From contig CAWILO010000004.1 in assembly GCA_963836955.1 (NCBI GenBank), positions 152,916 through 216,915 on the forward strand: a stretch of 64,000 nucleotides of DNA, in the 5' to 3' direction. Source of the stretch: an uncultured delta proteobacterium (GTDB lineage: Bacteria; Desulfobacterota; Binatia; Binatales; Binataceae). Positions 11,114-38,112 of this stretch are shown here, piece after piece (the stretch's first letter is position 1; every line of letters starts with the position of its first letter). The translations under genes and the position numbers were made by a program. The notes beneath the pieces are model-generated. The model worked only from the letters and a program-made list of their open reading frames with translations, made no database searches and was not told where the DNA came from.

Positions 11114-13372
11114 GTGTGGTCTTCCAGGAAGCTTATTGTCTCGCTCGCGACCGTGGTCCTTCTTTGCATCAGCACCGCCTTCGGCGCGCCTGCGCTAGAC
11201 GAGGCCGCACTCGAACGCAACTTCGACGCGCTCATTCAGCCGTCCGAAATGCGCGACTGGATGAAGCTGCTAGCCTCCCAGCCGAATCATGTAAGCTCGC
11301 CGCACGACAAGGCCAACGCCGACCAGATCCTCGCCTGGTTTAAGGACTGGGGCTGGGACGCGCACATCGAGACGTTCTGGGTGCTCTATCCTAAGCCCGT
11401 AAGCGAGACCTTGGAGTTAGTCGCTCCGCAAAAGTTTACCGCCACCTTGCAGGAGCCGCCGATCCCCGGCGATTCCAGCGCGACCGCCACCGATCCCGCG
11501 CTGCCCGCTTACGTCGCTTACCAGGGCGACGGCGACGTCACCGCCGGCCTCGTTTACGTCAATTATGGGATGCTCGACGACTACAAGATGCTCCAGCGCC
11601 TGGGCGTCAGCGTAAAGGGCAAGATCGTGATTGCGCGCTATGGTTCCGGATGGCGCGGGTTGAAGCCCAAGCTCGCCTACGATCACGGCGCGATCGGATG
11701 CCTCATCTATTCCGACCCTGCGCAGGACGGCTATTCGATCGATGAGACCTATCCTAACGGTCCTATGCGTCCACCGCACGGTGTGCAGCGCGGCTCGGTG
11801 CTCGATATGGGTCTCTATCCAGGCGATCCTCTAACGCCTGGCATAGGTGCCACCAAGGACGCCAAACGCCTGAACAGGTCCGACGCACCGACTATCATGA
11901 AGATTCCGACGCTTCCCATCTCGTATGCCGACGCGCAGGTCTTTCTCGCGGCGCTCGGAGGTCCTGTCGCACCACAAAATTGGCGCGGCGCGCTACCAAT
12001 CACCTACCATGTTGGACCCGGGCCTGCGCTGGTACATCTGGCGGTTAAGTCTGATTGGCAGCTACAGCCGATCTATGACGTCATCGCGATGCTGAAGGGC
12101 TCGACCTGGCCCGACCAGTGGGTTGTGCGCGGTAATCATCACGACGGCTGGGTCTTCGGCGCCACGGATCCGCTGTCGGGACAAGTTGCGCTGCTGGCGG
12201 AGGCCAAGGCTTTCGGCGGTCTCGCCAGGCAGGGATGGCAGCCCAAGCGCACGATCGTCTATACGAGTTGGGACGCCGAAGAGCCGATGCTCGTGGGTTC
12301 GACCGAATGGGCGGAGGAGCACGCGGCCGAACTCAAGAAGAAAGCAGTCCTATACATAAACTCCGACTCCAACGAACGGGGCTTTCTAGGTGTCGGTGGC
12401 AGCCACGACTTCCAGCATCTCGTGAACCAGGTTGCCGCCGACGTAATCGATCCTGAGTCCGGCGTTTCCATAGGTCAGCGTCTGCGCGCGAAAATGCGCA
12501 TAGCCGCCCTCGCACCCACTGCCAACGAGCACGCCAGGGCCGAAGCTAAGATCGCCGCAGATGCGGACAAGGACCTCCCCATCGAAGCGCTCGGGTCGGG
12601 CTCCGACTTTTCAACGTTTCTCGATCACTTAGGAGTGCCGGTGCTCGATGTCGGCTTCTACGAGGAGGGCCATTCCGGCGGCGTCTATCATTCTCGCTAT
12701 GACACCTTCGAGCATCACAGCCGCTTCGTCGATCCGGGTTTCGTGTATGACGCGATGCTGGCGAAAACGGTCGGCCGCATAGTGCTGCGCGTCGCCGACG
12801 CCGGCCTTCCCGTCCAAAACGCGAGTGCCTTCGCCAACGCGGTCTCGGACTATCTCGATCAGGTGAAGAAGCTCGCCGATGACGAGCGCGACGAGGCCGA
12901 GTCTCAAGCCAAACTATTGCACGACCGCGCGTTCCAGCTCGCCGCCGATCCTACCAAGTCGAGCGGCCTTCCCACCACGCTCGACCGCGTCCCGCACCTC
13001 GAGTTCGCGAGCCTTGAGGATGCCGTCGATCGTCTCAAGCGCAGCGCCAAGGCCTATGACGATGCGCTGGCGAAGAACGGCTCACACCTGTCCGGCTCTC
13101 AGATCGCGCAAGTGCAAGCACTTATATTGAACATCGATCAGACTCTGGCCCCCGAGAACGTCGGCCTGCCCGGACGGACCTGGTACAAGAATTTGATCTA
13201 CGCACCCGGCCGCTACACCGGCTACGAAGCCAAGACACTCCCCGGAGTTCGCGAAGCGATCGAGGATCGCCGATGGTCCGACGCCAACCGCTACGCCAAA
13301 CTAACCGCCGACGCGCTAAACGCCTACAGCGACCGCCTGAGCCAGGCCACAACCGTCCTCAACGGCAGCTAG
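11114..13372 (+). CDS. M28-family peptidase, glutamate carboxypeptidase II / transferrin-receptor-like, secreted
   Basis: 752 aa with GTG start and a signal peptide (LLCISTAFGAPA). It has a PA domain, the M28 zinc-site region (GNHHDGW..., SWDAEE) and a TFR-like dimerisation C-terminus. Confidence 0.85.
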   Translation: MWSSRKLIVSLATVVLLCISTAFGAPALDEAALERNFDALIQPSEMRDWMKLLASQPNHVSSPHDKANADQILAWFKDWGWDAHIETFWVLYPKPVSETLELVAPQKFTATLQEPPIPGDSSATATDPALPAYVAYQGDGDVTAGLVYVNYGMLDDYKMLQRLGVSVKGKIVIARYGSGWRGLKPKLAYDHGAIGCLIYSDPAQDGYSIDETYPNGPMRPPHGVQRGSVLDMGLYPGDPLTPGIGATKDAKRLNRSDAPTIMKIPTLPISYADAQVFLAALGGPVAPQNWRGALPITYHVGPGPALVHLAVKSDWQLQPIYDVIAMLKGSTWPDQWVVRGNHHDGWVFGATDPLSGQVALLAEAKAFGGLARQGWQPKRTIVYTSWDAEEPMLVGSTEWAEEHAAELKKKAVLYINSDSNERGFLGVGGSHDFQHLVNQVAADVIDPESGVSIGQRLRAKMRIAALAPTANEHARAEAKIAADADKDLPIEALGSGSDFSTFLDHLGVPVLDVGFYEEGHSGGVYHSRYDTFEHHSRFVDPGFVYDAMLAKTVGRIVLRVADAGLPVQNASAFANAVSDYLDQVKKLADDERDEAESQAKLLHDRAFQLAADPTKSSGLPTTLDRVPHLEFASLEDAVDRLKRSAKAYDDALAKNGSHLSGSQIAQVQALILNIDQTLAPENVGLPGRTWYKNLIYAPGRYTGYEAKTLPGVREAIEDRRWSDANRYAKLTADALNAYSDRLSQATTVLNGS

Positions 13373-13473
13373 CTCTTGCTATCGAACTTTGACGGCAAGT
13401 GACAAGAGTGCGCCTGTTAAGTGGGGTATCGGGGAAACTTAAGAGGGATTCTGATCTATCCGGGAGGAGAATC

Positions 13474-13737
13474 ATGCTGCGAAAAGTACGCAATACTCGT
13501 TGGATCGCAAGCGCATCGGGACTGCTCGTCATGGCCGCAGGGATTTCCGCATGCTCGATGTTCTCGGCGTCGAATGTACCAATCGATTGCGACGTCGTGA
13601 AAACGCAATTGCAGGCGGGGCAGACCGACGATCAGATCGCTTCTAACTTGAGTACCACGCCGGACAAGGTCGCCGCCTGCCACGGTCCGGCGACCGAGGG
13701 TAACAAAACTACGATCGTCCCTGAAAAGGGATACTGA
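13474..13737 (+). CDS. small putative lipoprotein
   Basis: GGGAGGAG RBS upstream of ATG. Signal with lipobox-like LVMAAGISAC. 87 aa. Confidence 0.4.
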   Translation: MLRKVRNTRWIASASGLLVMAAGISACSMFSASNVPIDCDVVKTQLQAGQTDDQIASNLSTTPDKVAACHGPATEGNKTTIVPEKGY

Positions 13738-13770
13738 TCGGCAACGGAATCACGACCGACCGGCACTTGC

Positions 13771-14226
13771 CTATTTGTGTTCGCCTTCGGGCAGGTTGAC
13801 GGTCGATTTGGATCCGTGGTCCAGGACAAAGAGAACAAGTATCGTCGCCGGCTTGCTCGTGCTCGCGTTCCTGCAGATCACGTGATGCTCGTATGGTTGC
13901 TCGACCCACGACTGACCGGCTCGATAAGTCTTTTTCGATTGCCCATCGAGCTGCGAGACCATTTCGCCATCCGTCACATACACAAACGTATAACCGGGAT
14001 GGATGTGCGGAGGATCGCCGACTCCCGGCGCATATTCGACAGTCATCAGCACGATGTCTTTAGGAGGCTTGCTGTCCGAAGTCTTCTGAAACAGGATCGT
14101 TTCCTTCTCTCCCTCCGGAGTAGCCTCCGACGCCGCAGTCTCCGCGTATCCAGCCACCGAGATTGCGAGGAGTAAAAGGCCCACGAGCACGAGATGAACG
14201 GACCTGATCAGCCGCGGAACGCGCAT
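13771..14226 (-). CDS. secreted cupin-domain protein
   Basis: Start at MRVPRLIRS with a signal peptide. Cupin core HIHPGYTFVYVTDGE. Stop of the upstream AraC gene is 1 nt away. Confidence 0.65.
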   Translation of the reverse strand: MRVPRLIRSVHLVLVGLLLLAISVAGYAETAASEATPEGEKETILFQKTSDSKPPKDIVLMTVEYAPGVGDPPHIHPGYTFVYVTDGEMVSQLDGQSKKTYRAGQSWVEQPYEHHVICRNASTSKPATILVLFVLDHGSKSTVNLPEGEHK

Positions 14227-14227
14227 A

Positions 14228-15202
14228 TCAACCCGCGACTGGTTCGAGCCGATCGGCGCGGGCAGCTTCACCCTCGCTATGCGATAGAGAAGCCGGGCTC
14301 CTGCCCCTGCTATATTGCCGCGGCGAACAGCCCATCACCCTCTTGAAGGCTGTGCTGAAGGCGCTTTCGGATTCGTAGCCGAGCGAGAGCGCAATCACGG
14401 AAATGGGATCCTTGGAATTCACCAGCCTGTCCCCGGCCAACAGCATTCTCCAGCGCGTCAGGTATTCCATGGGTGACGTGCCAACCGTCTCTTTGAATTT
14501 CAGGGCAAAGGTCGATCGCGACATGCCCGCCCGCGTCGCCAGCTCCTCTACTGTCCAGCGATGCGCCGGATCGTCATGCATTGAACTGATTGCCGCGCTC
14601 ATCTGTTTATCCGCCAGGGCGAAGAGCCACCCAACTCCTCCTCTCAACCCTTCCGCCAGATGCAGCCGCAGGGCCTGCACCAGCATCATGTAGGCTATCT
14701 GTTGTGCGACCAGAAAGCTGCCCGGCTGCCGCTCGCGCAGCTCCTCCATCATCCGCTCCAGCGACCAGCGCATCGCCGCCTTGTCCGATTCTTTCCGGAT
14801 ATGCACGATCGGCGGCAGCATCCCCAACAGGATGCCGGCATGCTTGCCGGTAAGAGCGAAGTGTCCGCCGACAATAAAGCAATCCCCGCCTCCATTGAAC
14901 GTGGCGACGCCACTATCTCGCCTGGCCGATAAAATCGTTTGGTAGTCGATAGGAGTCAGACTTAGATCGGTTGCAAGGCGAAATGGCGACCCACTCGCGA
15001 GGATAAAGCAGTCTCCCGCCTCCAGCCGTACCGCGTCGGGAACGCCCTCCACCGACAGCCAGCCCTGGCCAGAAACCAGCGCGTAGCATTTGATGCCTTC
15101 ATGCTGGGGGAACTGGACGGACAACTGCCCTCCCACATCAAAGCCACCCGACGAATAACTGCGCGGCTTCAGCAGCGACAGCACATCTGAAAGTGGATCC
15201 AT
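14228..15202 (-). CDS. AraC-family transcriptional regulator with N-terminal cupin-like sensor domain
   Basis: C-terminal double HTH (RWTVEELATRAGMSRSTFALKFKETVGTSPMEYLTRWR). 324 aa. Confidence 0.85.
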   Translation of the reverse strand: MDPLSDVLSLLKPRSYSSGGFDVGGQLSVQFPQHEGIKCYALVSGQGWLSVEGVPDAVRLEAGDCFILASGSPFRLATDLSLTPIDYQTILSARRDSGVATFNGGGDCFIVGGHFALTGKHAGILLGMLPPIVHIRKESDKAAMRWSLERMMEELRERQPGSFLVAQQIAYMMLVQALRLHLAEGLRGGVGWLFALADKQMSAAISSMHDDPAHRWTVEELATRAGMSRSTFALKFKETVGTSPMEYLTRWRMLLAGDRLVNSKDPISVIALSLGYESESAFSTAFKRVMGCSPRQYSRGRSPASLSHSEGEAARADRLEPVAG

Positions 15203-15216
15203 GGCTCTCTTTCCAA

Positions 15217-16200
15217 CTATGAGTTCACGTGCTCAGCGAGGGATGCAAGCCGCGCTATCAGCCCTACCGCATTGTCCCGGTAAATGCGCTCGCGATCCTT
15301 CTCGCTGAAAAACTCGCTCGATTCGAGCTGCTGATTGGTACCTAGGACTACCGAGTCAGGGGCCCAGGGCCAATCGCTCCCATAGACAATATGCGAAGTG
15401 TCGGAAATCTGTAGCAACGATGAGAGCGTGTGCTTCGATCCGGCTAAAGCTGTGTCGTAATACAGCCTGCGCAGGTAAGACATCGCGTCTCCTTTAATCG
15501 CAGGCTCTCGCGCGATTGCGCCGCCAACCCTCGTGATCCTTTCGGCCAAGATTGGCAGCGCGCCACCATTGTGCGGAACGATAATTCGAATGTCCGGGCA
15601 CCTCTCGAGCGTTCCGCTGAAAATCAGGTTCGTCACCGCACGCGTAGTATCGAATGGGAACTCGATCATCGGCCGCGCATAGCCCATTGCACAGTCCTTC
15701 CAGCAACTAGGCGAGGTGGGATGAATGAAGATCACCGTTTTGCGGCGATTCAGCTCATCGAAGATCGGATCGAACTTCTTATCACCTGGATAGGTGCCTC
15801 CAGCATTTGTCTTGAGTGCTATTCCGTCCGCGTGAAGGACATCGATCGCATAGGCTAGCTCTTCGAGCGATCCCTCAACGTCAGGCATCGGTAGTTCAGC
15901 GAAGAGTCCGAAACGTGTCGGAAATTTCGCGACGGTGTCAGCCCCCGACTCATTGACCCTCCGAGCAAGTCGTCTGCCGGCTGCGTCGTCGCCGTAATGC
16001 ACCCCCGGCGACGAAATCGATAGCACTCCGGTAGCGATTCCAAGCTTGTCGTAGGTCTCCAACGCTCTTTCAGGACTCCATTCCGGGTAACCTCGCATAC
16101 CGTCAGGATGGACAATCCCCGCTCCACGCAGTTCATCCGCGTAGCCGGGAGGCAGGTAGTGTGCATGTACATCAATCTTGCCAGTAAGGTCTGATTTCAT
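15217..16200 (-). CDS. amidohydrolase-2 family (ACMSD-like decarboxylase/hydratase)
   Basis: Start at MKSDLTGKIDVHAHYLPP (metal-binding HxH). Conserved HPTSP and DxD blocks. The ORF track's N-terminal extension is rejected. Confidence 0.8.
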   Translation of the reverse strand: MKSDLTGKIDVHAHYLPPGYADELRGAGIVHPDGMRGYPEWSPERALETYDKLGIATGVLSISSPGVHYGDDAAGRRLARRVNESGADTVAKFPTRFGLFAELPMPDVEGSLEELAYAIDVLHADGIALKTNAGGTYPGDKKFDPIFDELNRRKTVIFIHPTSPSCWKDCAMGYARPMIEFPFDTTRAVTNLIFSGTLERCPDIRIIVPHNGGALPILAERITRVGGAIAREPAIKGDAMSYLRRLYYDTALAGSKHTLSSLLQISDTSHIVYGSDWPWAPDSVVLGTNQQLESSEFFSEKDRERIYRDNAVGLIARLASLAEHVNS

Positions 16201-16220
16201 AGTCACTAATCCAATTAATC

Positions 16221-16286
16221 CAGTGGGGCGGGCCGCCGTGCCCAGTGGGGCGGGCCGCCGTGCCCAGTGGGGCGGGCCGCCGTGCC
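16221..16286. repeat. perfect 3 x 22-bp direct tandem repeat (CAGTGGGGCGGGCCGCCGTGCC) in divergent promoter region
   Basis: Read directly. Three identical head-to-tail copies lie between the amidohydrolase start (16200, -) and the epimerase start (16425, +). Confidence 0.9.
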
Positions 16287-16424
16287 CGCCGAATGTGCGA
16301 GCATCATCCCGGACGATCACGAAGATAATACGGACTCTACAGCATAGATTGTATTGCCTCCAGCGCTTATCTTGACAATAACGCGGCCGCACACGCGGTC
16401 ATGAAACGAAGTTAAGGAGAAATC

Positions 16425-17309
16425 GTGATGCGTGTCTTCGTCACTGGTGCCACAGGATTTATCGGCGCTGCCCTTGTCCACGAGCTAATCAACGCCGGCC
16501 ATCAGGTGCTCGGTCTTGCGCGCTCAGATGCGGGCGCCAAATCGCTGGTCGCCGCGGGCGCGCAAGTGCATCGCGGCGATCTTGATGACCTCGAAAGCCT
16601 GCGCAGTGGAGCAGCCATATCGGATGGCGTGATTCACCTCGCCTTCAATCACGACTTCTCGAAGTACGTCGAGAACTGTCAGGCAGACAGGCATGCTATC
16701 GAGGCGCTCGGCTCGGTGCTCGTTGGATCAGACCGGCCGCTGGTCGTTACCTCGGGCACCGCGGTGGCCTTCGTTCCGGGCCGCGTCGCAACCGAAGACG
16801 ATCCGCCCGTGCCCAGCTCGATGATGCCGCGCAGCGCTTCGGAAGAAGCTGCTACCGAGATGGTATCGCGGGGCGTGCGCGCGACGGCGATGCGCCTGCC
16901 GCAGGTCCACAACCGGCTCAAGCATGGCCTCATCACTCCCCTGATCGAGATAGCCCGCGCGAAGGGCGTCTCGGCGTACGTCGGCGACGGGCGCAACCGA
17001 TGGCCCGCGGCTCACTTGCTCGATACCGCGCGGCTATACCGGCTGGCGCTCGAAAAGGGCCTTGCAGGAGAACGCTTTAACGCGGTCGCCGAAGAAGGCG
17101 TGCCGCTGCGGGAAATCGCTGAAGCAGTAGGCCGGCGCATCAACGTGCCGGTCGTCTCAAAAACCCCCGAAGAGGCCTCCGAACATTTCGGCTGGCTCGC
17201 GTTCTTCGTGGGTAACGACGCTCCTGCCTCAAGCGCGAGAACGCAGGAACGCCTGGGATGGCGCCCAACGCAAACCGGCCTCATCGCCGACCTCGAGCAT
17301 CCAGAGTAA
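16425..17309 (+). CDS. NAD(P)-dependent epimerase/dehydratase family (atypical SDR, NmrA-like)
   Basis: RBS AAGGAGA upstream. VFVTGATGFIGAALV Rossmann motif. 294 aa. Confidence 0.8.
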   Translation: MMRVFVTGATGFIGAALVHELINAGHQVLGLARSDAGAKSLVAAGAQVHRGDLDDLESLRSGAAISDGVIHLAFNHDFSKYVENCQADRHAIEALGSVLVGSDRPLVVTSGTAVAFVPGRVATEDDPPVPSSMMPRSASEEAATEMVSRGVRATAMRLPQVHNRLKHGLITPLIEIARAKGVSAYVGDGRNRWPAAHLLDTARLYRLALEKGLAGERFNAVAEEGVPLREIAEAVGRRINVPVVSKTPEEASEHFGWLAFFVGNDAPASSARTQERLGWRPTQTGLIADLEHPE

Positions 17310-17401
17310 TTCGAAGGCCACAACAGATACGATACAAGGCCTGAACGGACAGCGACCCACGGCGACCGCGCAACGCTCCAGCGGTCGTTAAGAATCAGGC
17401 T

Positions 17402-17911
17402 TCACACACCTGCCCGCCGCCGGCTTGAGGCTTCTGTCTTATGCAAATAGCTCGTAAACCCATCGCCCGGCGGCGCGATCGAGTTTTGCATCATGATCAA
17501 ACTGATTTGCCCCCGATGGTATTCGCCATGAACTGTCACGTGCGTCAGCATTTCTTCCCGTGACATGCGGCCCGGCAAGCCATCGGTAAATGTAAAGTCG
17601 ATACGCTCGCCCAACCGTGCTTCATCCAGAAGCGATACATAGTTGATATACCACTGATCGTTGGTCTTGATCGCCGCCGACAATTCTTCCAGCGATGGCG
17701 CCTGGCCTGCGTTGGGCGAGGTGTATCCGTGCTCAGTTCCCGTCAAGTTCGCAGCGAAGATCCGGTCGACAGCATAAGTGTGGTTGAGGACTCTGACGGC
17801 GATCTCCTTTGCAGCAGAGGCATCGTCAAATTGTCGCATTGCCGTAAGAATCTCTTCGTTGGCCTTTGCCTTGTAGCTGAAGACCCGTTCTAGCGTGCTG
17901 ACTTGATCCAT
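17402..17911 (-). CDS. DinB/YfiT-like damage-inducible family protein
   Basis: HGEYHRGQ metal-binding motif near the C-terminus. 169 aa. Confidence 0.8.
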   Translation of the reverse strand: MDQVSTLERVFSYKAKANEEILTAMRQFDDASAAKEIAVRVLNHTYAVDRIFAANLTGTEHGYTSPNAGQAPSLEELSAAIKTNDQWYINYVSLLDEARLGERIDFTFTDGLPGRMSREEMLTHVTVHGEYHRGQISLIMMQNSIAPPGDGFTSYLHKTEASSRRRAGV

Positions 17912-17954
17912 CTTCTTTCTCCCGATTGAGATAATAGCGAACTCGCCCTCTTAG

Positions 17955-18105
17955 GAGGCTCTGCGTAACCGGCCCGGCCGTCTGTCTCCTCGCCTGTTAG
18001 GGCGAGAATGAAGGTGCGGGTCCTTGTGCAGCGCGCTCTTTTCCGCGCGATTCAGGATTCTGCCTCCGCTCTGAACACGCACGCCCGGGTTACCCAAAGC
18101 TCTGC
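17955..18105 (+). repeat. copy A of ~175-bp structured intergenic repeat (MITE/REP-like)
   Basis: About 85% identical to the reverse complement of 37936..38112. Shares the internal hairpin CTCGCC(C)TGTTAGGGCGAG and the GAAGGTG(C/A)GGGTCCTTGT block. Confidence 0.6.
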
Positions 18106-18123
18106 TCTAAGGGATCATTTCCA

Positions 18124-18906
18124 TCACACTGATTGCGAAGGCTTCCTCGCGGTCACGGTGCGCGCAGGAGGAAACGTCCAGAAACTGAGACCGGAGATTT
18201 CCACATCGATCATATCCGACTTGCGCAACTCGTCGGCGTAGAGGTCGGCGCCATGGAGGTCGGAAATCGCCACCTGGCCGCCTTGCTTGAGGGTGCGCAC
18301 GATTTCACGGATGGCTTCGCGGCGTCCTTCGCCGCTGGTAATGTTGTGGATGGCGAAGTGTGCGACGGTGGCGTCGAAACTGCCGTCGGCGAAGGGCATT
18401 TTGCGCATGTCGCCGTCATCAACGCTGACTCGCTGCGCGACTCCCTCCAGCGCGGCATTTCTTAGCGTGGCTTCACGCGAATTGTCCGACTGCTGCCACT
18501 GCGACCACAGATCGATGCCTACCGCGCGACCTCGCGGCACCAGCTTTGCCGCGGCGATGAGCAGGAGCCCGTGCCCACAACCGACATCGAGCACGGTTTC
18601 GTCTCCGCGGAGCTTCAAGCGCGCCAGGATACGGTCGCGTGCGTGGAGTTTACCGAAGCGACTGCTGGCGAACATGAGAGTCGCGAGGATCAAAAAGCAA
18701 AAGCCAGAAATTTGAAGCGTGTAAGCCAGGCCGAGGTGCCGGCTCGAAGTCCATACGAGAACGAAACCAATGATCGCTCCCGCGAGGCCGAGGACGAACA
18801 TCGCGTAAACGGCTGCACCCGCATCGAGACCATAGTCCGGCGCTTGTCTGCTCATGACCCTGCTACCTGCTTGTGTGGACATCGTCGTGACTTGCGTTTT
18901 CATCAT
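18124..18906 (-). CDS. membrane-anchored class I SAM-dependent methyltransferase
   Basis: Two N-terminal TM helices, then VLDVGCGHGLL motif I and a DxHG-containing fold. 260 aa. Confidence 0.7.
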   Translation of the reverse strand: MMKTQVTTMSTQAGSRVMSRQAPDYGLDAGAAVYAMFVLGLAGAIIGFVLVWTSSRHLGLAYTLQISGFCFLILATLMFASSRFGKLHARDRILARLKLRGDETVLDVGCGHGLLLIAAAKLVPRGRAVGIDLWSQWQQSDNSREATLRNAALEGVAQRVSVDDGDMRKMPFADGSFDATVAHFAIHNITSGEGRREAIREIVRTLKQGGQVAISDLHGADLYADELRKSDMIDVEISGLSFWTFPPARTVTARKPSQSV

Positions 18907-18962
18907 CGATAAAATACAAGTGATCGCTCACAATTGTAAACTCGCATTCCGAGGCTCGTGCG

Positions 18963-19589
18963 ATGGCGCAAAAACCGCAAACAAACCCCAGAAAATCCGC
19001 CTCTCAAGAGCGATCGCGTCTAACCGTCGATGCCCTTCTCGAAGCGACTGCTCGCATTCTGATGAAAGAAGGTTATGACCGGACGAGCACCAACCGGATC
19101 GCCGAGCTGGCCGGCGTCAGTATCGGCTCGCTCTACCAGTACTTCCCGAGCAAGGAGGCGCTGGTAGCGGCTGTTATTGACCGTCATACACAAGAAATTT
19201 CCGGGGTGACGCGCAAGGCCCTGCTCAAGGCGGCTGCGCTCCCGCTCGAGGCCGCGGCGCGCGAATTCGTTTCAGTTGCAATCGACGCTCACCGCGTCAA
19301 TCCCAAGCTGCATGGCGTCCTTGCGGAACAGATCCCGCGCGTCGGGCGGCTCGAAAACATCGAGGCAAATATCCGAGACGGTTATGCACTGGTCCGGGGC
19401 TATCTCGAGGCGCATCGCGATGAGATCGACGTCGCCGACCTCGATCTCGCGGCCTTCGTCCTGGTGACTGTCGTGGAGGCGCTGACCCACGCAGCAGTCC
19501 TGCGCCGCCCAGACATCCTCACCGGCGACAAAGCAAGACACTTTGTGGACGACGTAACCCGCCTGGTAGTCCGCTACCTGAAAGCCTAG
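18963..19589 (+). CDS. TetR/AcrR family transcriptional regulator
   Basis: N-terminal HTH (GYDRTSTNRIAELAGVSIGSLYQYFPSKEAL). Divergent from the methyltransferase gene. Confidence 0.85.
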   Translation: MAQKPQTNPRKSASQERSRLTVDALLEATARILMKEGYDRTSTNRIAELAGVSIGSLYQYFPSKEALVAAVIDRHTQEISGVTRKALLKAAALPLEAAAREFVSVAIDAHRVNPKLHGVLAEQIPRVGRLENIEANIRDGYALVRGYLEAHRDEIDVADLDLAAFVLVTVVEALTHAAVLRRPDILTGDKARHFVDDVTRLVVRYLKA

Positions 19590-19724
19590 GTCCCGCCAAC
19601 GCCCCTTCAGCAAAGGCCAACAATTCGCCCGCTCGCGCTGACCGTTTGTGTCCGCCATTTGTCGGTCGCCGTTGCTCTGGTAAACCCATTTCGACGATTG
19701 AGTTTTGAATAAAACGGAAATCGC

Positions 19725-20159
19725 TTGGCTCCCTTAAATCCGCCGATAAAGTTGCTCGAACGCACCCGCTGGAAAGATCGGGACACGTTCGCGAGTCTCA
19801 TCAAGGCCAATCTCGGCAAAATAAAAGCTCGCCAACTAATCATTTCTGCCGAGCACGTTCCGGGGTTGATCGACAAGATAGCAGATCACCTTGACGACAC
19901 TATGGAACCCGGAGCGGAGTTTCAGTTGGATGCATACCAACCACCGCGCGAAACAACGAAGAGGAAGCGCAAACCTTCATCTAGGGTCCCTAGGGGGACA
20001 GCAAAGTTATGGAAACAACTTGTTGCCAGCGAGGAACAAGCGCGCATTGAAATACGCGTTTTCACAAAAGGGAAGGCCTTCACACTCTTTTTCGAGCCGA
20101 TCAAAGCGGACGATGAACTCGAAAACGCGTTCTGGAAGGACGAGTTCGGAGACGGATGA
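19725..20159 (+). CDS. hypothetical protein (first gene of low-GC islet operon)
   Basis: 144-aa ORF in a ~50% GC stretch, tightly followed by the paralog array. No family recognised and no obvious SD. Confidence 0.4.
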   Translation: MAPLNPPIKLLERTRWKDRDTFASLIKANLGKIKARQLIISAEHVPGLIDKIADHLDDTMEPGAEFQLDAYQPPRETTKRKRKPSSRVPRGTAKLWKQLVASEEQARIEIRVFTKGKAFTLFFEPIKADDELENAFWKDEFGDG

Positions 20160-20170
20160 ATCGTAGGTCG

Positions 20171-20536
20171 ATGAATCTTAGCCACGCAGCCGCGCTCGCG
20201 CTTGTGGGCTGGTACTTGATGGTGCCGCCGATGGCGCATAAAGAAGACTGGCAACTAGGCGGTCCTCGTGGGCCGGAAAGAGCCCCGTTGAGCAAATGGT
20301 TTACCTACGATTGGTTTGACACCGCTGACGCATGTACGAAGGCGCGCGATTCGCTCATGGCGAGGGCGTCATCCAATGCCCTCAATGACTATCATCGATG
20401 GCTGGCTGGTCGTGCCCCATCGGACGACCTACTTGGCGAATGGGACAGTACATACAGCACCGTCCTTGCGCTCAATGACGCCTACGGCCGGTCGCTGCGC
20501 ATTGCGACCGACGATCCTAGGCTCAAGGGAAAGTAG
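20171..20536 (+). CDS. small secreted protein, paralog 1 of tandem array
   Basis: MNLSHAAALALVGWYLMVPP hydrophobic leader. C-terminal ...IATDDPRLKGK shared with paralogs 2 and 3. Stop TAG lies 1 nt before the next ATG (AAGTAGGATGAA junction, repeated at each gene boundary). Confidence 0.5.
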   Translation: MNLSHAAALALVGWYLMVPPMAHKEDWQLGGPRGPERAPLSKWFTYDWFDTADACTKARDSLMARASSNALNDYHRWLAGRAPSDDLLGEWDSTYSTVLALNDAYGRSLRIATDDPRLKGK

Positions 20537-20537
20537 G

Positions 20538-20909
20538 ATGAATCTCCGCCACGCCGCCGCGCTCGCGCTCGCAGGCTGGTATCTTGTCACTCCCCATGCT
20601 TTGCCGTCCTCACGTGAACCAAATCTCTCTTTACCGCTATCACAATGGTCGCGGTTCGGACCCGTGCCGTCGAAAAGTGATTGCGAAGCCAGACTTTCGG
20701 CGTCGATGCAAAAGAACGATGATCCGACGATTCGCGAGAAGCTCTTTAAGGAGCAGCTGCCAAGCGTACGTGCTGAATTGCGGAGTATGTCGCCGAACCA
20801 GAAAATGCCCGACAGTTACTACGACAAAGCATACTTTGATGATTTACATCGTTACTTAAAACTTTCGCAGTGCATCGCAAGCGACGATCCGCGCCTCAAG
20901 GAAAAGTAG
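20538..20909 (+). CDS. small secreted protein, paralog 2 of tandem array
   Basis: MNLRHAAALALAGWYLV leader. Two Cys (SKSDCEAR, SQCIASDDPRLKEK). The same junction sequence leads into paralog 3. Confidence 0.5.
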   Translation: MNLRHAAALALAGWYLVTPHALPSSREPNLSLPLSQWSRFGPVPSKSDCEARLSASMQKNDDPTIREKLFKEQLPSVRAELRSMSPNQKMPDSYYDKAYFDDLHRYLKLSQCIASDDPRLKEK

Positions 20910-20968
20910 GATGAACCTACGCGCTGCCGCGCTCGCGCTCGTGGGCTGGTATCTGATGTCGCCCCTAG

Positions 20969-22143
20969 GGAAGCTCTGCACAGGTCTTAACTGGGCCGCT
21001 ATTTGAGATGTAAGTGAGCACTTTCAGGAAGGAGAGGCGACAGTGCGGTAGGTTGTTGGCCGCTCGGAGCGGCCAGCCACATTGCTATTCTCGCCGGTCC
21101 GGGTCACAGGGAACACCTCGCTCCGGCCGGGAGCAGTTGGCGGCGCAGTTGGTAGAGATTAGCCAGTGCGAACATGGTCTGCGCCCGCGCCAGATTCTTG
21201 GCCAAGCCGCGATATCTCACTTTGGTGAAGCCCCACAACTGCTTGACCACGCGGAAGGCATGCTCGCCGCAGGCGCGAGTGCGCGAACGCGCCCGATTGA
21301 TCATGCGCCAGCGTTCGCTCAACGGCCGCCAGGCAGTGGGACGGCGATTGATTCGATAATGTATCCCCCAGCTTTCAAGGAACTCTCGGTCGTCTTCTTT
21401 CCAGTACGCCTGATCGCCGAACACCGCGCGCTCCTCTCCATGCAAAAGCTCCGGCAGCTGAGTGACATCGGCGACCGCGGCATCGGTCGCTTTTACGGTG
21501 TGAACGATACCGCGCCGGTCGGCGCCGATGTGCAACTTCATCCCGAAATGCCAGTTCTTGCCCTTGCGCGTCTGCTTCATCTCGGGGTCGCGCTTCGCGC
21601 TGGCGTTTTTGGTGGAACTGGGCGCCGCGATGATGGTCGCATCCACGATGGTCCCCGAGCGCAGCAAAAGGCCGCGCGCTTCGAGCAAGCCGCCAATCGC
21701 GTCGAAGATTGCACTGGTCAAACCGTGCTGCTCCAGCAGATGGCGAAAGCGCAGGATGGTCGTCTCATCCGGCACCACGTCGTCGCCCAACTCCACTCGC
21801 GCGAAGCGCCGCATCGACTCGCTGTCGTAGATCGCGTCTTCCGCCTGCGGGTCGGAGAGATTGAACCATTGCTGCAGAAAGTAGATGCGCAGCATCTTCT
21901 CAAGCCCCAGCGGCTGGCGGCCGTTGCCGGCTTTGGGATAATGAGGCTCGATCAGCCTAAGCAGCCGCGCCCACGAGATTACCGCATCCATCTCGGCCAG
22001 AAACCGCTCGCGCCGGGTGACCTTGCCCTTCGCGCTCCAGGCCATCGAAGCAAACGTCCGCTGACTACCCATCACCACACCTCCCCATCCACCGATTCGA
22101 CCTTTCCTTTCTACACGAATCGACAAACTTGTGCAGAGCTTCC
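20969..22143 (-). mobile_element. IS5-family (IS5 subgroup) insertion sequence, 1175 bp, apparently intact
   Basis: Imperfect terminal inverted repeats GGAAGCTCTGCACAGG (left) and GGAAGCTCTGCACAAG (right, revcomp). Flanked by 4-bp direct duplication CTAG (20965-20968 and 22144-22147). Single transposase gene inside. Confidence 0.85.
21104..22072 (-). CDS. IS5-family DDE transposase (InsH-like)
   Basis: 322 aa from MGSQRTFASMAWSAKGKVTRRERFLAEMDAVISW... The blocks EPHYPKAGNGRQP, HLLEQHGL, DATIIAAPSSTKN, RDPEMKQTRKGKNWHFGMKLHIG and LANLY are near-identical to E. coli IS5 InsH. Confidence 0.9.
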   Translation of the reverse strand: MGSQRTFASMAWSAKGKVTRRERFLAEMDAVISWARLLRLIEPHYPKAGNGRQPLGLEKMLRIYFLQQWFNLSDPQAEDAIYDSESMRRFARVELGDDVVPDETTILRFRHLLEQHGLTSAIFDAIGGLLEARGLLLRSGTIVDATIIAAPSSTKNASAKRDPEMKQTRKGKNWHFGMKLHIGADRRGIVHTVKATDAAVADVTQLPELLHGEERAVFGDQAYWKEDDREFLESWGIHYRINRRPTAWRPLSERWRMINRARSRTRACGEHAFRVVKQLWGFTKVRYRGLAKNLARAQTMFALANLYQLRRQLLPAGARCSL

Positions 22144-22390
22144 CTAGTTGATCACAATGCGAACAAAATAGTCTACGAAGCGCCGCTAACATATTGGGAA
22201 CACGAGGGGAGTTTCGATACAGCGACCGAATGCGAGCGCAAGCGGAAGGATGATGTTCGCGTGATGAGTAACCTCAGAACGAATAGCACGGATCGCAGTC
22301 CAGGCTCTGACCTCGGCCTCAACTCGGCTCTGGCGGCTAAATGCGTCGCGTCTGACGATCCCCGGCTGAAGGAAAAATAACTACAAAGCT

Positions 22391-23152
22391 ATGGCGAAGT
22401 TCGAAGAACGATTCGGTCTTGTGGTTGGAGTGGATGAAGCGCGGGAGCGCTTCGTGAATCGCGCCCACTACGTGATCTTTACGAAGTTTGTCCTCACAGA
22501 TCAGCACTCCAGATACGTTGACGCCGTAACGTTTGGTCTGGGCAGACCCGTACAGTTCGATGCGTCACTCAGAGAAATCGTCGGGCGAGATTTTCACGAC
22601 AATCTGAAGGCAATCGAGTACGTTCGTCGGGCAGCAAACAATAAAGCCGCCCTTGATCAGATCGTCGCTCAGATTCTGCGGGAATCAGAAGTCGATCTAG
22701 GTGTTCGGTGGGAAGACGGGGTGTTCGTAAAAGCGGGAGCGCCTCTGCTCGACGACAAGCTGGTAAGAGATGTGCTCGGATGGGCGCGCGAGAAAGAATA
22801 TGAAATCGTGCTCGCCCCCTTTGAGAAGGGTCTGCGGCACTTCCTTGAATCCACAAAACGTCCTGAAGTTCTTTCAGATGTTGTTACCGATATGTACGAA
22901 GCGCTTGAAGCCGTCGCGAAAATCGTCACAGAGCGAAATGACGATCTGTCCAGCAACCGTGAGCGATTCATCAAGGCCGTTCGCGCGCCCGACGCGTACA
23001 AAAAAATCCTGAAAGAATACATCGATTACGGATGCGAGTTTCGTCATGCTGCCGACGCTGCGGGACAAAAGCCCGCGCTCTCACCTGAAGAAGTTGAATC
23101 GTTCATCTATCTGACTGGCGTTTTTGTGCGCTTTGCGATGAGGACGCGCTGA
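22391..23152 (+). CDS. hypothetical protein (last gene of low-GC islet)
   Basis: 253-aa ORF starting 10 nt after the paralog 3 stop. Low-GC codon usage. No family confidently recognised. Confidence 0.5.
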   Translation: MAKFEERFGLVVGVDEARERFVNRAHYVIFTKFVLTDQHSRYVDAVTFGLGRPVQFDASLREIVGRDFHDNLKAIEYVRRAANNKAALDQIVAQILRESEVDLGVRWEDGVFVKAGAPLLDDKLVRDVLGWAREKEYEIVLAPFEKGLRHFLESTKRPEVLSDVVTDMYEALEAVAKIVTERNDDLSSNRERFIKAVRAPDAYKKILKEYIDYGCEFRHAADAAGQKPALSPEEVESFIYLTGVFVRFAMRTR

Positions 23153-23322
23153 AGTTCTGTTCCCTCTCCAGGGCTGCCGCTGTTTGCGACCAACATTTCG
23201 GGCGCGGCGTCAAAGCCGCACGCGCAGAGGGAGTTGCACCTGATCGGAGACGATTCGCTGCCACCATGTTCGATGGGTGTCCTGACGACACTGCGGCCGT
23301 GAACAGCGTGTGTCCGCGTTTT

Positions 23323-23351
23323 TTGACACCTCGCGGGCTCGGTTGTATAGT
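23323..23351 (+). promoter_or_regulatory. near-consensus sigma70 promoter (TTGACA-17 bp-TATAGT) for thiamine operon
   Basis: Read directly. TTGACA at 23323-23328, 17-nt spacer, TATAGT at 23346-23351. Sits immediately upstream of the TPP riboswitch. Confidence 0.55.
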
Positions 23352-23354
23352 CGG

Positions 23355-23450
23355 ATCAGGCTGGGGGTGTGCTTTATACGCACTGAGAGCTCCCTCGGGA
23401 GAACCCCTCGAACCTGATCCGGGTAATGCCGGCGTAGGGAAGCCAACGGC
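23355..23450 (+). promoter_or_regulatory. TPP (thiamine pyrophosphate) riboswitch / THI element
   Basis: GGCUGGGGGUG...CUGAGAG...ACCC..GAACCUGAUCCGGGUAAUGCCGGCGUAGGGAAG matches the THI-box consensus. It is followed by the hairpin CCGCTTCCCC-ACACCA-GGGAAGCGG overlapping the thiS RBS region. Confidence 0.85.
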
Positions 23451-23506
23451 GCAACGTTCGCGGCTGCGCCTGGGCCGCTTCCCCACACCAGGGAAGCGGC
23501 TCAATA

Positions 23507-31670: not shown

Positions 31671-31747
31671 TGGTCGGGGTGGCCGGATTTGAACCGGCGA
31701 CCACTCGCACCCCAAGCGAGTGCGCTACCAGTCTGCGCCACACCCCG
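31671..31747 (-). tRNA. tRNA-Pro (anticodon GGG)
   Basis: Minus-strand sequence CGGGGTGTGGCGCAGACTGGTAGCGCACTCGCTTGGGGTGCGAGTGGTCGCCGGTTCAAATCCGGCCACCCCGACCA. It has a 7-bp acceptor stem and an anticodon loop UUGGGGU (G37 typical of Pro). GTTCAAATCC T-loop and encoded CCA. Confidence 0.85.
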
Positions 31748-37935: not shown

Positions 37936-38112
37936 CTCTCCCTGATAGAGAGTTTTGCGTAACATCCGCGCAGGCGTTCGGAGCAGAGGCAGAATCCTAA
38001 ATCTCGCGCAGAATAGCGCGCTGTACAAGGACCCTCACCTTCATCCTCGCCCTAACAGGGCGAGGAGACAGACAGCCGAGCCGATTACGCAAAACGCTCC
38101 TGATAGAGAGAA
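37936..38112 (-). repeat. copy B of ~175-bp structured intergenic repeat (inverted relative to copy A)
   Basis: Ends carry TGATAGAGAG direct flanks and the 10-bp inverted repeat TTTTGCGTAA / TTACGCAAAA. Internal perfect hairpin CTCGCCC-TAACA-GGGCGAG. About 85% identical to copy A over ~150 bp. Confidence 0.6.

What the first reader, a model, noticed from the sequence alone, without database searches (positions are those of the whole stretch)
19690..23160. Low-GC islet carrying a five-gene operon of unknown function
GC drops from ~65% to ~50% between the TetR gene (ends 19589) and the TPP riboswitch (23355). Inside are co-directional, tightly packed genes: a 144-aa hypothetical, three paralogous small secreted proteins (stop and start separated by 1 nt with the same AAGTAGGATGAA junction each time), and a 253-aa hypothetical 10 nt further on. 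None has a recognisable family. No integrase or tRNA borders the islet. The structure is that of a horizontally acquired cassette encoding a hypothetical-protein/secreted-protein-array/hypothetical-protein set, a layout seen in effector/immunity or surface-variation loci.
Basis: partly seen in the sequence, partly recalled or inferred. Interest (0 to 1): 0.7.

Follow-up and report, generated by a model that had tools for sequence, protein, structure and literature searches.

The report
IS-disrupted accessory gene cluster in Binatus
The low-GC stretch is a real, strain-specific patch of accessory genes in an uncultured soil bacterium (Candidatus Binatus), but it is a mosaic broken by a jumping gene, not an intact five-gene operon; it combines members of a very large unannotated family of small proteins with a probable RNA-cutting defence or toxin protein.

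Summary
It missed a 1,175-bp IS5-family insertion sequence (20969-22143, CTAG target duplication) that splits the third small paralog, so the "operon" is broken.

- **GC:** the drop is 61% to 53.5%, not 65% to 50%.
- **Extent:** among 60 related Binataceae genomes, none carries these genes upstream of thiS. In two relatives the M28-peptidase stop codon abuts the thiS promoter. The strain-specific segment is therefore about 10 kb (13373-23312) and also includes the TetR gene.
- **Small paralogs:** they belong to an unannotated family (about 4,900 clusters at 50% identity). Members have a signal-like N terminus, two conserved cysteines and a C-terminal DDPRLK motif. No structural relative was found.
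- **144-aa protein:** it has only 8 homologs.

Most likely this is a recombinational mosaic of mobile accessory modules, not one five-gene system. Functions remain inferred. Interest is moderate to low.

The parts
13373..23312 (.). Strain-specific variable segment between the M28 peptidase stop codon and the thiS promoter. It contains a small lipoprotein-like ORF and genes for a cupin, an AraC regulator, an amidohydrolase, an SDR/epimerase, a DinB protein, a methyltransferase and TetR, followed by the cassette.
   Evidence: blastn against 60 Binataceae thiG loci shows that in L013 and L021 window 13370 abuts window 23320, with a 44-62 bp gap. Other relatives carry 0.9-6.6 kb of different genes here. 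GC is 0.579.
18963..19589 (+). TetR-family regulator.
   Evidence: Pfam TetR_N and TetR_C_15. Absent from all 60 related thiG loci.
19725..20159 (+). ORF-A, a 144-aa hypothetical protein with a TTG start, from a rare family.
   Evidence: Only 8 homologs in 5.8 billion proteins. dN/dS is 0.23-0.35. DNA homology with L004 and L005 runs from 19651 to 20229. A family gene follows it in L004 and L005 but not in L006.
20171..20536 (+). Small-family paralog 1, 121 aa. An alternative ATG at 20156 overlaps the ORF-A stop codon.
   Evidence: Alignment. A3 HMM E = 1e-36.
20538..20909 (+). Small-family paralog 2, 123 aa, starting 1 nt after the paralog-1 stop codon.
20911..20968 (+). Small-family paralog 3, 5' fragment (19 codons), ending in the CTAG target site.
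   Evidence: Joining it to 22148-22380 gives an in-frame 96-aa protein that is 78% identical to the intact ortholog P0208 in L171.
20969..22143 (-). IS5-family insertion sequence. Its terminal inverted repeats (GGAAGCTCTGCACAGGT and ACTTGTGCAGAGCTTCC) are at 20969-20985 and 22127-22143. It is flanked by a 4-bp CTAG duplication at 20965-20968 and 22144-22147. It occurs once in the window.
   Evidence: Inverted repeat I1. The IR pattern matches only at these two places. The intact ortholog has a single CTAG at the site. The same junction appears in an independent short assembly, L001.
21104..22072 (-). IS5-family DDE transposase. It is about 322 aa from the first ATG inside the element. The mechanical 362-aa ORF starts outside the IS.
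   Evidence: NCBIfam NF033581 transpos_IS5_4, 331 bits against a cut-off of 140. Pfam DDE_Tnp_1 and DUF772.
22148..22380 (+). Small-family paralog 3, 3' fragment (77 codons plus stop).
   Evidence: A3 HMM hit.
22391..23152 (+). ORF-E, 253 aa: a helical N-terminal domain, a beta-hairpin and a HEPN-fold domain. Conserved residues are H150, E173-x3-K177, R218-H219 and R247.
23323..23457 (+). thiS promoter (TTGACA-17-TATAGT, 23323-23351) and TPP riboswitch (23353-23457). This is the conserved right flank.
   Evidence: Homology with relatives resumes at 23313-23320.

Best explanation
The interval is the right-hand part of a ~10-kb strain-specific segment. That segment sits in a hypervariable intergenic site (M28 peptidase gene | thiS promoter) of a Candidatus Binatus genome. 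The interval is a recombinational mosaic of small accessory modules, not one operon.

**Module 1.** ORF-A, a rare 144-aa protein, plus the start of a tandem array of three genes.
- The array genes belong to a very large unannotated family of ~100-125-aa proteins.
- Family members have a signal-peptide-like N terminus (M-x-x-R-H-AAALALVGWYLM-x-PP), two conserved cysteines, a variable helical centre and a C-terminal C-[IV]-A-[ST]-DDPRLK-EK.
- Neighbouring genes are joined by AAGGAAAAGTAGGATG, in which the last codons of one gene form the ribosome-binding site of the next. This implies translational coupling.

**Module 2.** The end of a family gene, 10 nt of spacer, and ORF-E. In Binataceae this pair moves as a unit.
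- ORF-E is a HEPN-fold protein. I infer it is an RNase-type abortive-infection or toxin effector of the AF0298/AbiV-like kind: the Arg is kept and followed by a polar residue, an E-x3-K motif is present, and there is an upstream conserved His.
- The small proteins are inferred to be exported, disulfide-stabilised envelope proteins. Their role is unknown. They may modulate or partner whatever gene they are coupled to.

**IS5 insertion.** An IS5-family element recently transposed into a CTAG in paralog 3. It inactivated that gene and uncoupled ORF-E from upstream transcription.

**Shown:** the anatomy, the IS, absence from relatives, other genomic contexts, family sizes, the predicted fold and purifying selection.

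**Inferred:** export of the small proteins, RNase or defence activity of ORF-E, any functional link between the two, and the recombination mechanism.
For: **Anatomy and IS**
-.

**Strain-specific segment at a hypervariable site**
-.
- The cassette has the lowest GC in the window: 0.535 against 0.610.

**Modules found in other contexts**
- ORF-A plus a family gene lies between ggt and a cyclase gene in L004 and L005.
- A family gene plus ORF-E (77-91% identical) lies inside integrase/HTH_17/terminase elements in L002, L003, L173 and L174. It lies after HNH and bc1 genes in L176 and L177, and is also present in L091.
- In all four of these contexts, homology to the window starts at 22327-22342, in the conserved 3' end of the family gene.

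**The ORF-E family is a solo gene**
- 80 metagenome loci show no recurrent neighbour. Only two of them carry a family gene: L091 upstream and L140 downstream.

**ORF-E has a HEPN fold**
- JGI labels one homolog UPF0332.
- E173-x3-K177, R218 followed by H219, and H150 are 91-100% conserved. This fits the variant-motif description for the AF0298 and AbiV families in PMC3710099.

**Size and features of the small family**
- 4,861 representatives at E <= 1e-3 and more than 4,353 hits in the word-based search.
- 56 of 64 aligned members have exactly two Cys, and the N terminus is hydrophobic.
- A divergent member in L002 carries a lipobox (LMSC), which supports export.

**All genes are under purifying selection**
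-.
Against: - No experimental data exist for any of these proteins.
- ORF-E lacks the canonical Rx4-6H motif and matches no HEPN, AbiV or PADLOC sequence model. It could be a non-catalytic HEPN.
- The AF2 model places part of the supposed signal peptide (WYLM) as a core beta-strand at pLDDT ~91. No canonical AXA cleavage site follows. Export is therefore not proven.
- All close ORF-E homologs (>=75% identical) have a family gene 10-12 nt upstream. That could reflect a real two-gene system rather than hitch-hiking.
- The left part of the 10-kb segment may have a different history from the cassette.
Confidence: 0.6

Rival explanations
1. This is a single horizontally acquired five-gene operon that encodes an effector/immunity or surface-variation system, laid out as hypothetical protein, secreted-protein array, hypothetical protein.
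For: - GC is low and the region is absent from relatives.
- The small genes are tandem paralogs with variable centres and conserved ends.
- The genes are tightly spaced.
- The family-gene/ORF-E pair recurs in Binataceae.
Against: - An IS5 element interrupts the array.
- The five genes never recur together in any locus examined.
- ORF-E is a solo gene in 78 of 80 loci.
- ORF-A occurs without a paralog in L006.
- No toxin domain, secretion-system gene or recombinase is present in the segment.
- PADLOC gives no hits.
Confidence: 0.1
2. The small-family gene plus ORF-E is a genuine two-gene conflict module (defence or toxin-antitoxin-like). It came from Binataceae prophages or integrative elements and is left here as a remnant. 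The small protein would act as the sensor, antitoxin or immunity partner of the HEPN effector.
For: - The pair has conserved 10-12-nt spacing in five distinct contexts. Two of these are integrase-bearing elements, one of which also carries a terminase.
- A family gene lies downstream of ORF-E in L175 and L140.
- Other family genes sit directly upstream of or next to FRG-domain and HNH proteins.
- A genuine phage, L008, carries a family gene.
- Prophage-encoded HEPN Abi proteins are known, for example HepS (PMC13043305, listed).
Against: - The partner small gene is only ~30-40% identical between contexts, while ORF-E is 77-91% identical.
- Most ORF-E relatives lack it.
- Most family genes have unrelated neighbours.
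- ORF-E has no relatives in 2.9 million viral contigs, and the family has only 4.
- There are no hits in the phage or plasmid databases.
- An exported protein is an unusual antitoxin for a cytoplasmic HEPN.
Confidence: 0.2
3. The small proteins are phage lysis or spanin-like proteins, or other phage morons, and the cassette is a decayed prophage lysis region.
For: - A family gene sits between the replication genes and the small terminase in phage contig L008.
- In L002 the family genes lie next to the terminase gene.
- The proteins have an N-terminal hydrophobic segment and a helical, Cys-containing body.
Against: - The family has thousands of clusters and sits mostly in non-phage chromosomal contexts, for example alr|thiS, efp and hisH.
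- Only 4 viral contigs carry it.
- No endolysin or holin is adjacent.
- No match was found in the BFVD library of viral structures.
- There are no phage genes in window 13-24 kb.
Confidence: 0.04
4. The ORFs are chance open frames or annotation artefacts in a non-coding AT-richer spacer.
For: - No known families match.
- ORF-A has a TTG start.
Against: - dN/dS is 0.14-0.35 for ORF-A, ORF-E and the paralogs.
- The proteins have hundreds to thousands of homologs.
- The AF2 models are confident.
Confidence: 0.01

Closest known systems
Stand-alone HEPN abortive-infection proteins (lactococcal AbiV; Gifsy-1 prophage HepS) and the AF0298/UPF0332 HEPN-T clade
   Different: ORF-E matches no sequence model (Pfam HEPN families, PADLOC AbiV and others). 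It has no Rx4-6H motif. It carries an extra ~115-residue N-terminal helical domain and a beta-hairpin. In Binataceae an exported-type small gene lies 10-12 nt upstream. Activity and trigger are untested.
HEPN/MNT (HepT/MntA) type II toxin-antitoxin modules
   Same: It is a compact two-gene arrangement with a HEPN protein as the downstream gene, and it is mobile and patchily distributed.
   Different: The upstream partner is not a nucleotidyltransferase. It is a small protein with a signal-like N terminus and two Cys residues. No MNT gene lies nearby. ORF-E is twice the size of HepT.
IS5 (IS5 group of the IS5 family, e.g. E. coli IS5/InsH)
   Same: It has a DDE transposase of about 320 aa (NF033581, 331 bits), ~17-bp terminal inverted repeats beginning GGAAG, and a 4-bp CTAG target duplication. 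That IS5 of E. coli also makes a 4-bp duplication with consensus YTAR is from my own knowledge.
   Different: It is a new element in an uncultured Binatia genome, and only one copy lies in this window. Activity is not tested.
Tandem immunity-gene arrays and polymorphic-toxin loci
   Same: The locus has tandem paralogous small genes with conserved ends and divergent centres, and their products are probably periplasmic.
   Different: There is no toxin, Rhs, CDI or T6SS gene in the segment. Most family members are single genes scattered beside unrelated genes. No immunity-family model matches.
Classical genomic island
   Same: It is absent from close relatives, has deviant GC and carries accessory cargo.
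   Different: It has no integrase, no flanking tRNA and no flanking direct repeats. It sits in a site that varies in every related species examined.

Membership tests
HEPN superfamily (ORF-E) | Four- to five-helix up-and-down HEPN bundle fold | tested here: met
HEPN superfamily (ORF-E) | Rx4-6H catalytic motif | tested here: not met
   R218 (47/47) is followed directly by H219 (46/47). There is no conserved His 5-7 residues after the Arg. PMC3710099 describes families (AbiV, AF0298) that keep the R and use another conserved His. H150 (44/47) is a candidate, but its spatial position was not checked.
HEPN superfamily (ORF-E) | Second conserved acidic residue in an Ex3[KR] motif | tested here: met
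   E173 (47/47) and K177 (43/47). The motif definition is from PMC3710099.
HEPN superfamily (ORF-E) | Match to a curated HEPN sequence model | tested here: not met
   No Pfam or NCBIfam HEPN model matched ORF-E or any of 47 family members at E <= 1. A profile search against PDB sequences found nothing relevant. One homolog carries the JGI label UPF0332.
AbiV and other catalogued anti-phage systems | Match to a PADLOC-DB model | tested here: not met
   No PADLOC hits at E <= 1 for any of the five proteins.
HEPN/MNT toxin-antitoxin | Adjacent minimal nucleotidyltransferase (MNT) partner gene | tested here: not met
   The upstream gene is a small-family member. No recurrent neighbour appears in 80 loci. 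No nucleotidyltransferase domain is present in the segment.
IS5 family insertion sequence | DDE transposase of the IS5 family | tested here: met
   NF033581, 331 bits against a cut-off of 140. Pfam DDE_Tnp_1 and DUF772.
IS5 family insertion sequence | Terminal inverted repeats and a short target-site duplication | tested here: met
   The 17-nt IRs match at 16 of 17 positions. CTAG lies on both sides, and the intact ortholog has a single CTAG.
Classical genomic island / integrative element | Integrase, tRNA or other att site, and flanking direct repeats | tested here: not met
   The nearest tRNA is at 31671. No integrase is among the segment's ORFs. No flanking direct repeats were found.
Classical genomic island / integrative element | Absent from close relatives, with deviant composition | tested here: met
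Effector/immunity (polymorphic toxin) locus | A toxin or effector domain and/or secretion-system genes next to the small immunity-like genes | tested here: not met
   Pfam, NCBIfam and PADLOC searches on all ORFs of 13.4-23.2 kb found none.
Sec- or lipoprotein-exported small proteins (paralogs) | Cleavable signal peptide or lipobox | tested here: inconclusive
   The N terminus has a positively charged n-region and a ~13-residue hydrophobic core. A divergent member has an LMSC lipobox. No AXA site follows, and AF2 builds WYLM into the sheet. No signal-peptide predictor was available.
Phage lysis cassette / spanins (paralogs) | Adjacency to holin and endolysin genes, and a phage context | tested here: not met
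   No such genes are in the window. There are 4 viral contigs among 2.9 million. The BFVD fold search found no hit.

The most novel reading that the evidence does not exclude
The 'GWYLM...DDPRLK' genes may be more than an unannotated family. Their first ~40 and last ~12 coding nucleotides are conserved at the DNA level far beyond what the protein requires. Mosaic breakpoints between genomes fall in these ends. The genes sit directly beside varied conflict-type genes, including HEPN, FRG and HNH proteins.

Two novel readings are not excluded:
- The conserved ends act as portable recombination and translational-coupling joints that shuffle cargo genes in Binatia.
- The small, probably exported protein is the common sensor or immunity subunit of a new class of two-gene defence modules with interchangeable effectors.
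Probability: 0.12. Interest if true: 0.7.

Novelty: new member of a known kind. Interest (0 to 1): 0.35.

Why it matters
For this window, the result corrects the picture. The region is an IS-disrupted mosaic in a hypervariable site, not a five-gene system. Its borders are 13.4-23.3 kb, not 19.7-23.2 kb.

Two by-products may be useful more widely:
- A sequence-orphan HEPN-fold family (more than 460 members) with a variant active-site signature. It is a reasonable candidate for defence-system screens.
- A very large, unannotated and apparently Binatia-centred family of small, probably exported proteins (about 4,900 clusters at 50% identity), with unusual nucleotide-level conservation of the gene ends.

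Neither changes current understanding unless the functional link or the recombination role is shown.

Tried and rejected
- **Sequence-family searches.** Pfam, NCBIfam, PADLOC and PHROGs gave nothing for the five proteins. Pfam scans of 47 ORF-E and 64 small-family members gave no consistent hit. Weak single hits (EcoR124_C E 0.13, STM4504/CBY_0614 E 0.063, phrog_9802 E 0.009) were judged non-significant.
- **PDB sequence profiles.** These searches found nothing relevant.
- **Viral contigs.** ORF-E had 0 relatives and the small family had 4 loci.
- **Phage and plasmid collections.** ORF-E had no match in the phage and plasmid collections. The small family was searched only against plasmids, with no match.
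- **Literature.** A search for the motifs DDPRLK and GWYLM found 0 papers.
- **Conserved partner of ORF-E.** None was found in 80 metagenome loci.
- **att-like direct repeats flanking the cassette.** None was found.
- **RNA structure at the conserved 5' ends of family genes.** None was found; z-scores were -0.5 to +2.4.
- **'Fused' two- and three-repeat family proteins.** P0136 was first considered evidence against a signal peptide. It is explained by a -1 frameshift of the AAGTAGGATGAA junction, so it is uninformative.
- **Source genome.** The genome itself was not retrieved. The best species representative has ThiG 98% identical.

Full report
**1. Observation.**
- TetR is at 18963-19589 (Pfam TetR_N and TetR_C_15).
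- The 144-aa ORF is at 19725-20159, with a TTG start.
- The small paralogs are at 20171-20536 and 20538-20909, and a third starts at 20911.
- The 253-aa ORF is at 22391-23152, 10 nt after a TAA.
- The TPP riboswitch is at 23353-23457.
- AAGTAGGATGAA occurs exactly twice, at 20531 and 20904, against 0 expected. The ORF-A/paralog-1 junction is different.

The arms at 20965-20985 and 22127-22147 are inverted repeats. They enclose a 1,175-bp element (20969-22143) with a minus-strand transposase. The transposase matches NCBIfam IS5-family model NF033581 (331 bits, cut-off 140) and Pfam DDE_Tnp_1 and DUF772. CTAG flanks the element on both sides.

Removing the element and one CTAG restores an in-frame 96-aa paralog. 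That protein is 78% identical to an intact ortholog (P0208, L171). The ortholog's DNA has a single CTAG at the site. A short independent assembly shows the same IS/gene junction (L001).

GC is 61.0% for the window, 56.1% for the finding interval, 53.5% for the cassette without the IS and 61.2% for the IS. No other 2.3-kb stretch of the window is as low as the cassette. The GC drop is real but smaller than claimed.

**2. Organism and synteny.** ThiG, just downstream, is 83-98% identical to that of about 60 MAGs labelled Candidatus Binatus or Binataceae (lineage).
- None of these loci has TetR, the methyltransferase, ORF-A, ORF-E or the transposase within 10 kb of thiG.
- blastn shows conserved synteny on both sides. 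In L013 and L021, window position 13370 (the M28 peptidase stop codon) lies 44-62 bp from window position 23320, which is just upstream of the thiS promoter TTGACA-17-TATAGT at 23323-23351.
- The strain-specific segment is therefore 13373 to about 23312 (9.9 kb). Besides the cassette it holds genes for a cupin, an AraC regulator, an amidohydrolase, an SDR/epimerase, a DinB protein, a methyltransferase and TetR.
- Other Binatus species carry 0.9-6.6 kb of different genes at the same site. It is a hypervariable spot.
- In three more distant species (L047, L050, L066), a single small-family gene sits immediately upstream of the riboswitch.
- There is no integrase, flanking tRNA or flanking direct repeat.

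**3. The small paralogs.** They share 30-47% protein identity. The consensus is MNLRHAAALALVGWYLMxPP ... PLSxW ... SFD(S/T)A..C ... C(I/V)A(S/T)DDPRLKEK.
- A profile search found more than 4,353 relatives among 8,000 scored candidates.
- An exhaustive hmmsearch of 1.84 billion 50%-identity representatives found 4,861 at E <= 1e-3 and 2,586 at E <= 1e-10.
- No Pfam, NCBIfam, PHROGs or PADLOC model matches them.
- Every named carrier seen here is a Binataceae MAG.
- 56 of 64 aligned members have exactly two Cys. The N terminus is a charged n-region plus a ~13-residue hydrophobic core.
- A divergent member in L002 has the same N terminus followed by a lipobox, LMSC. This supports export.
- The AF2 model (pLDDT 86) builds WYLM into a three-stranded sheet with the two other conserved segments, and no AXA site follows. 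Export therefore remains an inference.
- Apparent multi-repeat proteins such as P0136 are -1 frameshifts of the tandem junction. This shows that the 1-nt junction is common elsewhere.

**4. ORF-E.** It has more than 460 homologs (~45-91% identical among those listed). Some come from Thermodesulfobacteriota and Desulfobacteraceae MAGs. None has a Pfam domain, and one is labelled UPF0332 by JGI.
- AF2 (pLDDT 88) gives an N-terminal helical domain, a beta-hairpin and a C-terminal helical bundle.
- The canonical Rx4-6H motif is absent.
- The family does conserve R218 (100%) followed directly by H219 (98%), E173-x3-K177 (100% and 91%), H150 (94%) and R247 (100%).
- According to PMC3710099, the residue after the motif Arg is typically polar (N, D or H). 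Many HEPN families have an Ex3[KR] motif. AbiV- and AF0298-type families lack the motif His and instead use a conserved upstream His.
- ORF-E fits that variant pattern. I therefore infer a possibly active RNase-type HEPN, with moderate confidence.

**5. Linkage.**
- In 80 metagenome loci encoding ORF-E relatives there is no recurrent neighbour. Tyrosine recombinases occur near four of them.
- Only two of the 80 carry a small-family gene: L091 upstream and L140 downstream.
- All close homologs (>=75% identical) have a family gene 10-12 nt upstream:
  - the window itself;
  - L002 and L003, inside an element with an integrase, HTH_17 and a terminase, next to asnS;
  - L173 and L174, an integrase element;
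  - L176 and L177, ordered HNH, family gene, ORF-E after the bc1 genes;
  - L091.
- L175 (67% identical) has a family fragment downstream.
- The upstream partners are only ~30-40% identical to each other.
- Homology between these four contexts and the window begins at 22327-22342, in the conserved 3' end of the family gene, and ends at or near the ORF-E stop codon.
- ORF-A has just 8 homologs. In L004 and L005 it is followed by family genes, between ggt and a cyclase gene. In L006 it is not. Its shared DNA block with the window (19651-20229) ends in the conserved 5' end of paralog 1.
- Other family genes sit beside unrelated partners: a 194-aa protein, a 478-aa proline-rich protein, a 147-aa protein, a zinc ribbon plus an FRG-domain protein, tail-anchored proteins, and a genuine phage.
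- ORF-E has no relatives in viral contigs and the family has four. ORF-E has no match in the phage or plasmid collections, and the small family has none in the plasmid collection.

**6. Selection and an unexplained feature.** dN/dS is 0.23-0.35 for ORF-A, 0.14-0.20 for ORF-E and about 0.2 for the paralogs, including the reconstructed paralog 3. All are real genes, and the IS insertion is recent.

Across 13 non-redundant family genes (median protein identity 38%), I compared codons at positions where the amino acid is the same.
- Codon identity is 0.755 in the N-terminal block, against 0.29-0.35 expected from codon usage.
- It is 0.10-0.42 at conserved middle columns.
- The L-K-E-K codons at the 3' end (AAGGAAAAG, the ribosome-binding site of the next gene) are 0.82-0.89 identical.
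- No stable RNA structure explains the conservation at the 5' end.
- The corresponding DNA motif occurs only in family genes.

This fits recombination or gene conversion at the gene ends, or selection on the mRNA that encodes the signal peptide. I could not decide between them.

**7. Interpretation.** The best reading is a recombinational mosaic of accessory modules in a hypervariable intergenic site. The modules are ORF-A plus the family array, and a family gene plus a HEPN-fold solo effector. An IS5 insertion has recently damaged the array.

The five-gene effector/immunity operon is not supported as a unit. A genuine two-gene module of family gene plus HEPN remains a live rival (about 0.2).

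By kind, this is an ordinary accessory islet. It carries a new IS5 member, a sequence-orphan HEPN-fold family and members of a large unannotated small-protein family.

Noticed in passing
window 17981-18073 (minus orientation) and 37982-38075; L018 2404-2487, L022 9909-9990, L014 10792-10889: An intergenic repeat element of ~85-90 nt with two hairpins (GCGCGC..GCGCGC and CCTC(G/T)CCCT..AGGG(C/A)GAGG). The second stem shows a compensatory change between the window copies and the relatives. It recurs between thiS and thiG and after thiG in related genomes. The RNA fold is -39.3 kcal/mol (z -3.9). No Rfam family matches it. It could be REP/MITE-like or terminator/sRNA-like.
   Followed up: partly
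window 13373-23312 and the equivalent site in L011-L027: The spacer between the M28 peptidase gene and the thiS promoter is hypervariable among Candidatus Binatus species. It ranges from 44 bp to 6.6 kb with different gene sets. A ~250-280-aa gene ('IDGPGFVLMPNL...') recurs next to thiS in many relatives but is absent from the window.
   Followed up: partly
window 13399-13737: A 112-aa lipoprotein-like ORF lies downstream of the M28 peptidase gene here. Its ~75%-identical counterpart lies upstream of that gene in relatives (for example L021 6792-7158 and L013 4102-4450). This is either a local rearrangement or a paralog.
   Followed up: no
family genes in window 20171-20214, 20538-20581, 20911-20951 and in L002, L004, L171, L172, L176, L178, L180, L182: The first ~40 coding nucleotides of small-family genes are nearly identical at synonymous sites across genes that are only ~38% identical as proteins. 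Codon identity is 0.755 against 0.29-0.35 expected. No RNA structure explains this.
   Followed up: partly
L182 5001-6140 (also L181); L176 6836-8774: Small-family genes also sit directly upstream of a 253-aa FRG-domain protein (L182) and directly downstream of an HNH endonuclease (L176). This suggests a tendency to neighbour conflict-type genes. The sample is too small for statistics.
   Followed up: partly
L004 1310-1633 and L173 869-1333: Two otherwise unrelated proteins lie directly upstream of family genes and share a similar C-terminal tail-anchor segment (50% identity over 24 aa). It may be another recurrent partner.
   Followed up: no
L002 4206-16352: A prophage-like integrative element in a related metagenome contig lies next to a class II aminoacyl-tRNA synthetase gene (PF00152; asnS-like). 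It carries genes for an integrase, HTH_17, a split terminase and an MT-A70 methyltransferase. It also carries two family genes, a lipobox variant of the family, a zinc-ribbon protein and ORF-E at 91% identity.
   Followed up: partly
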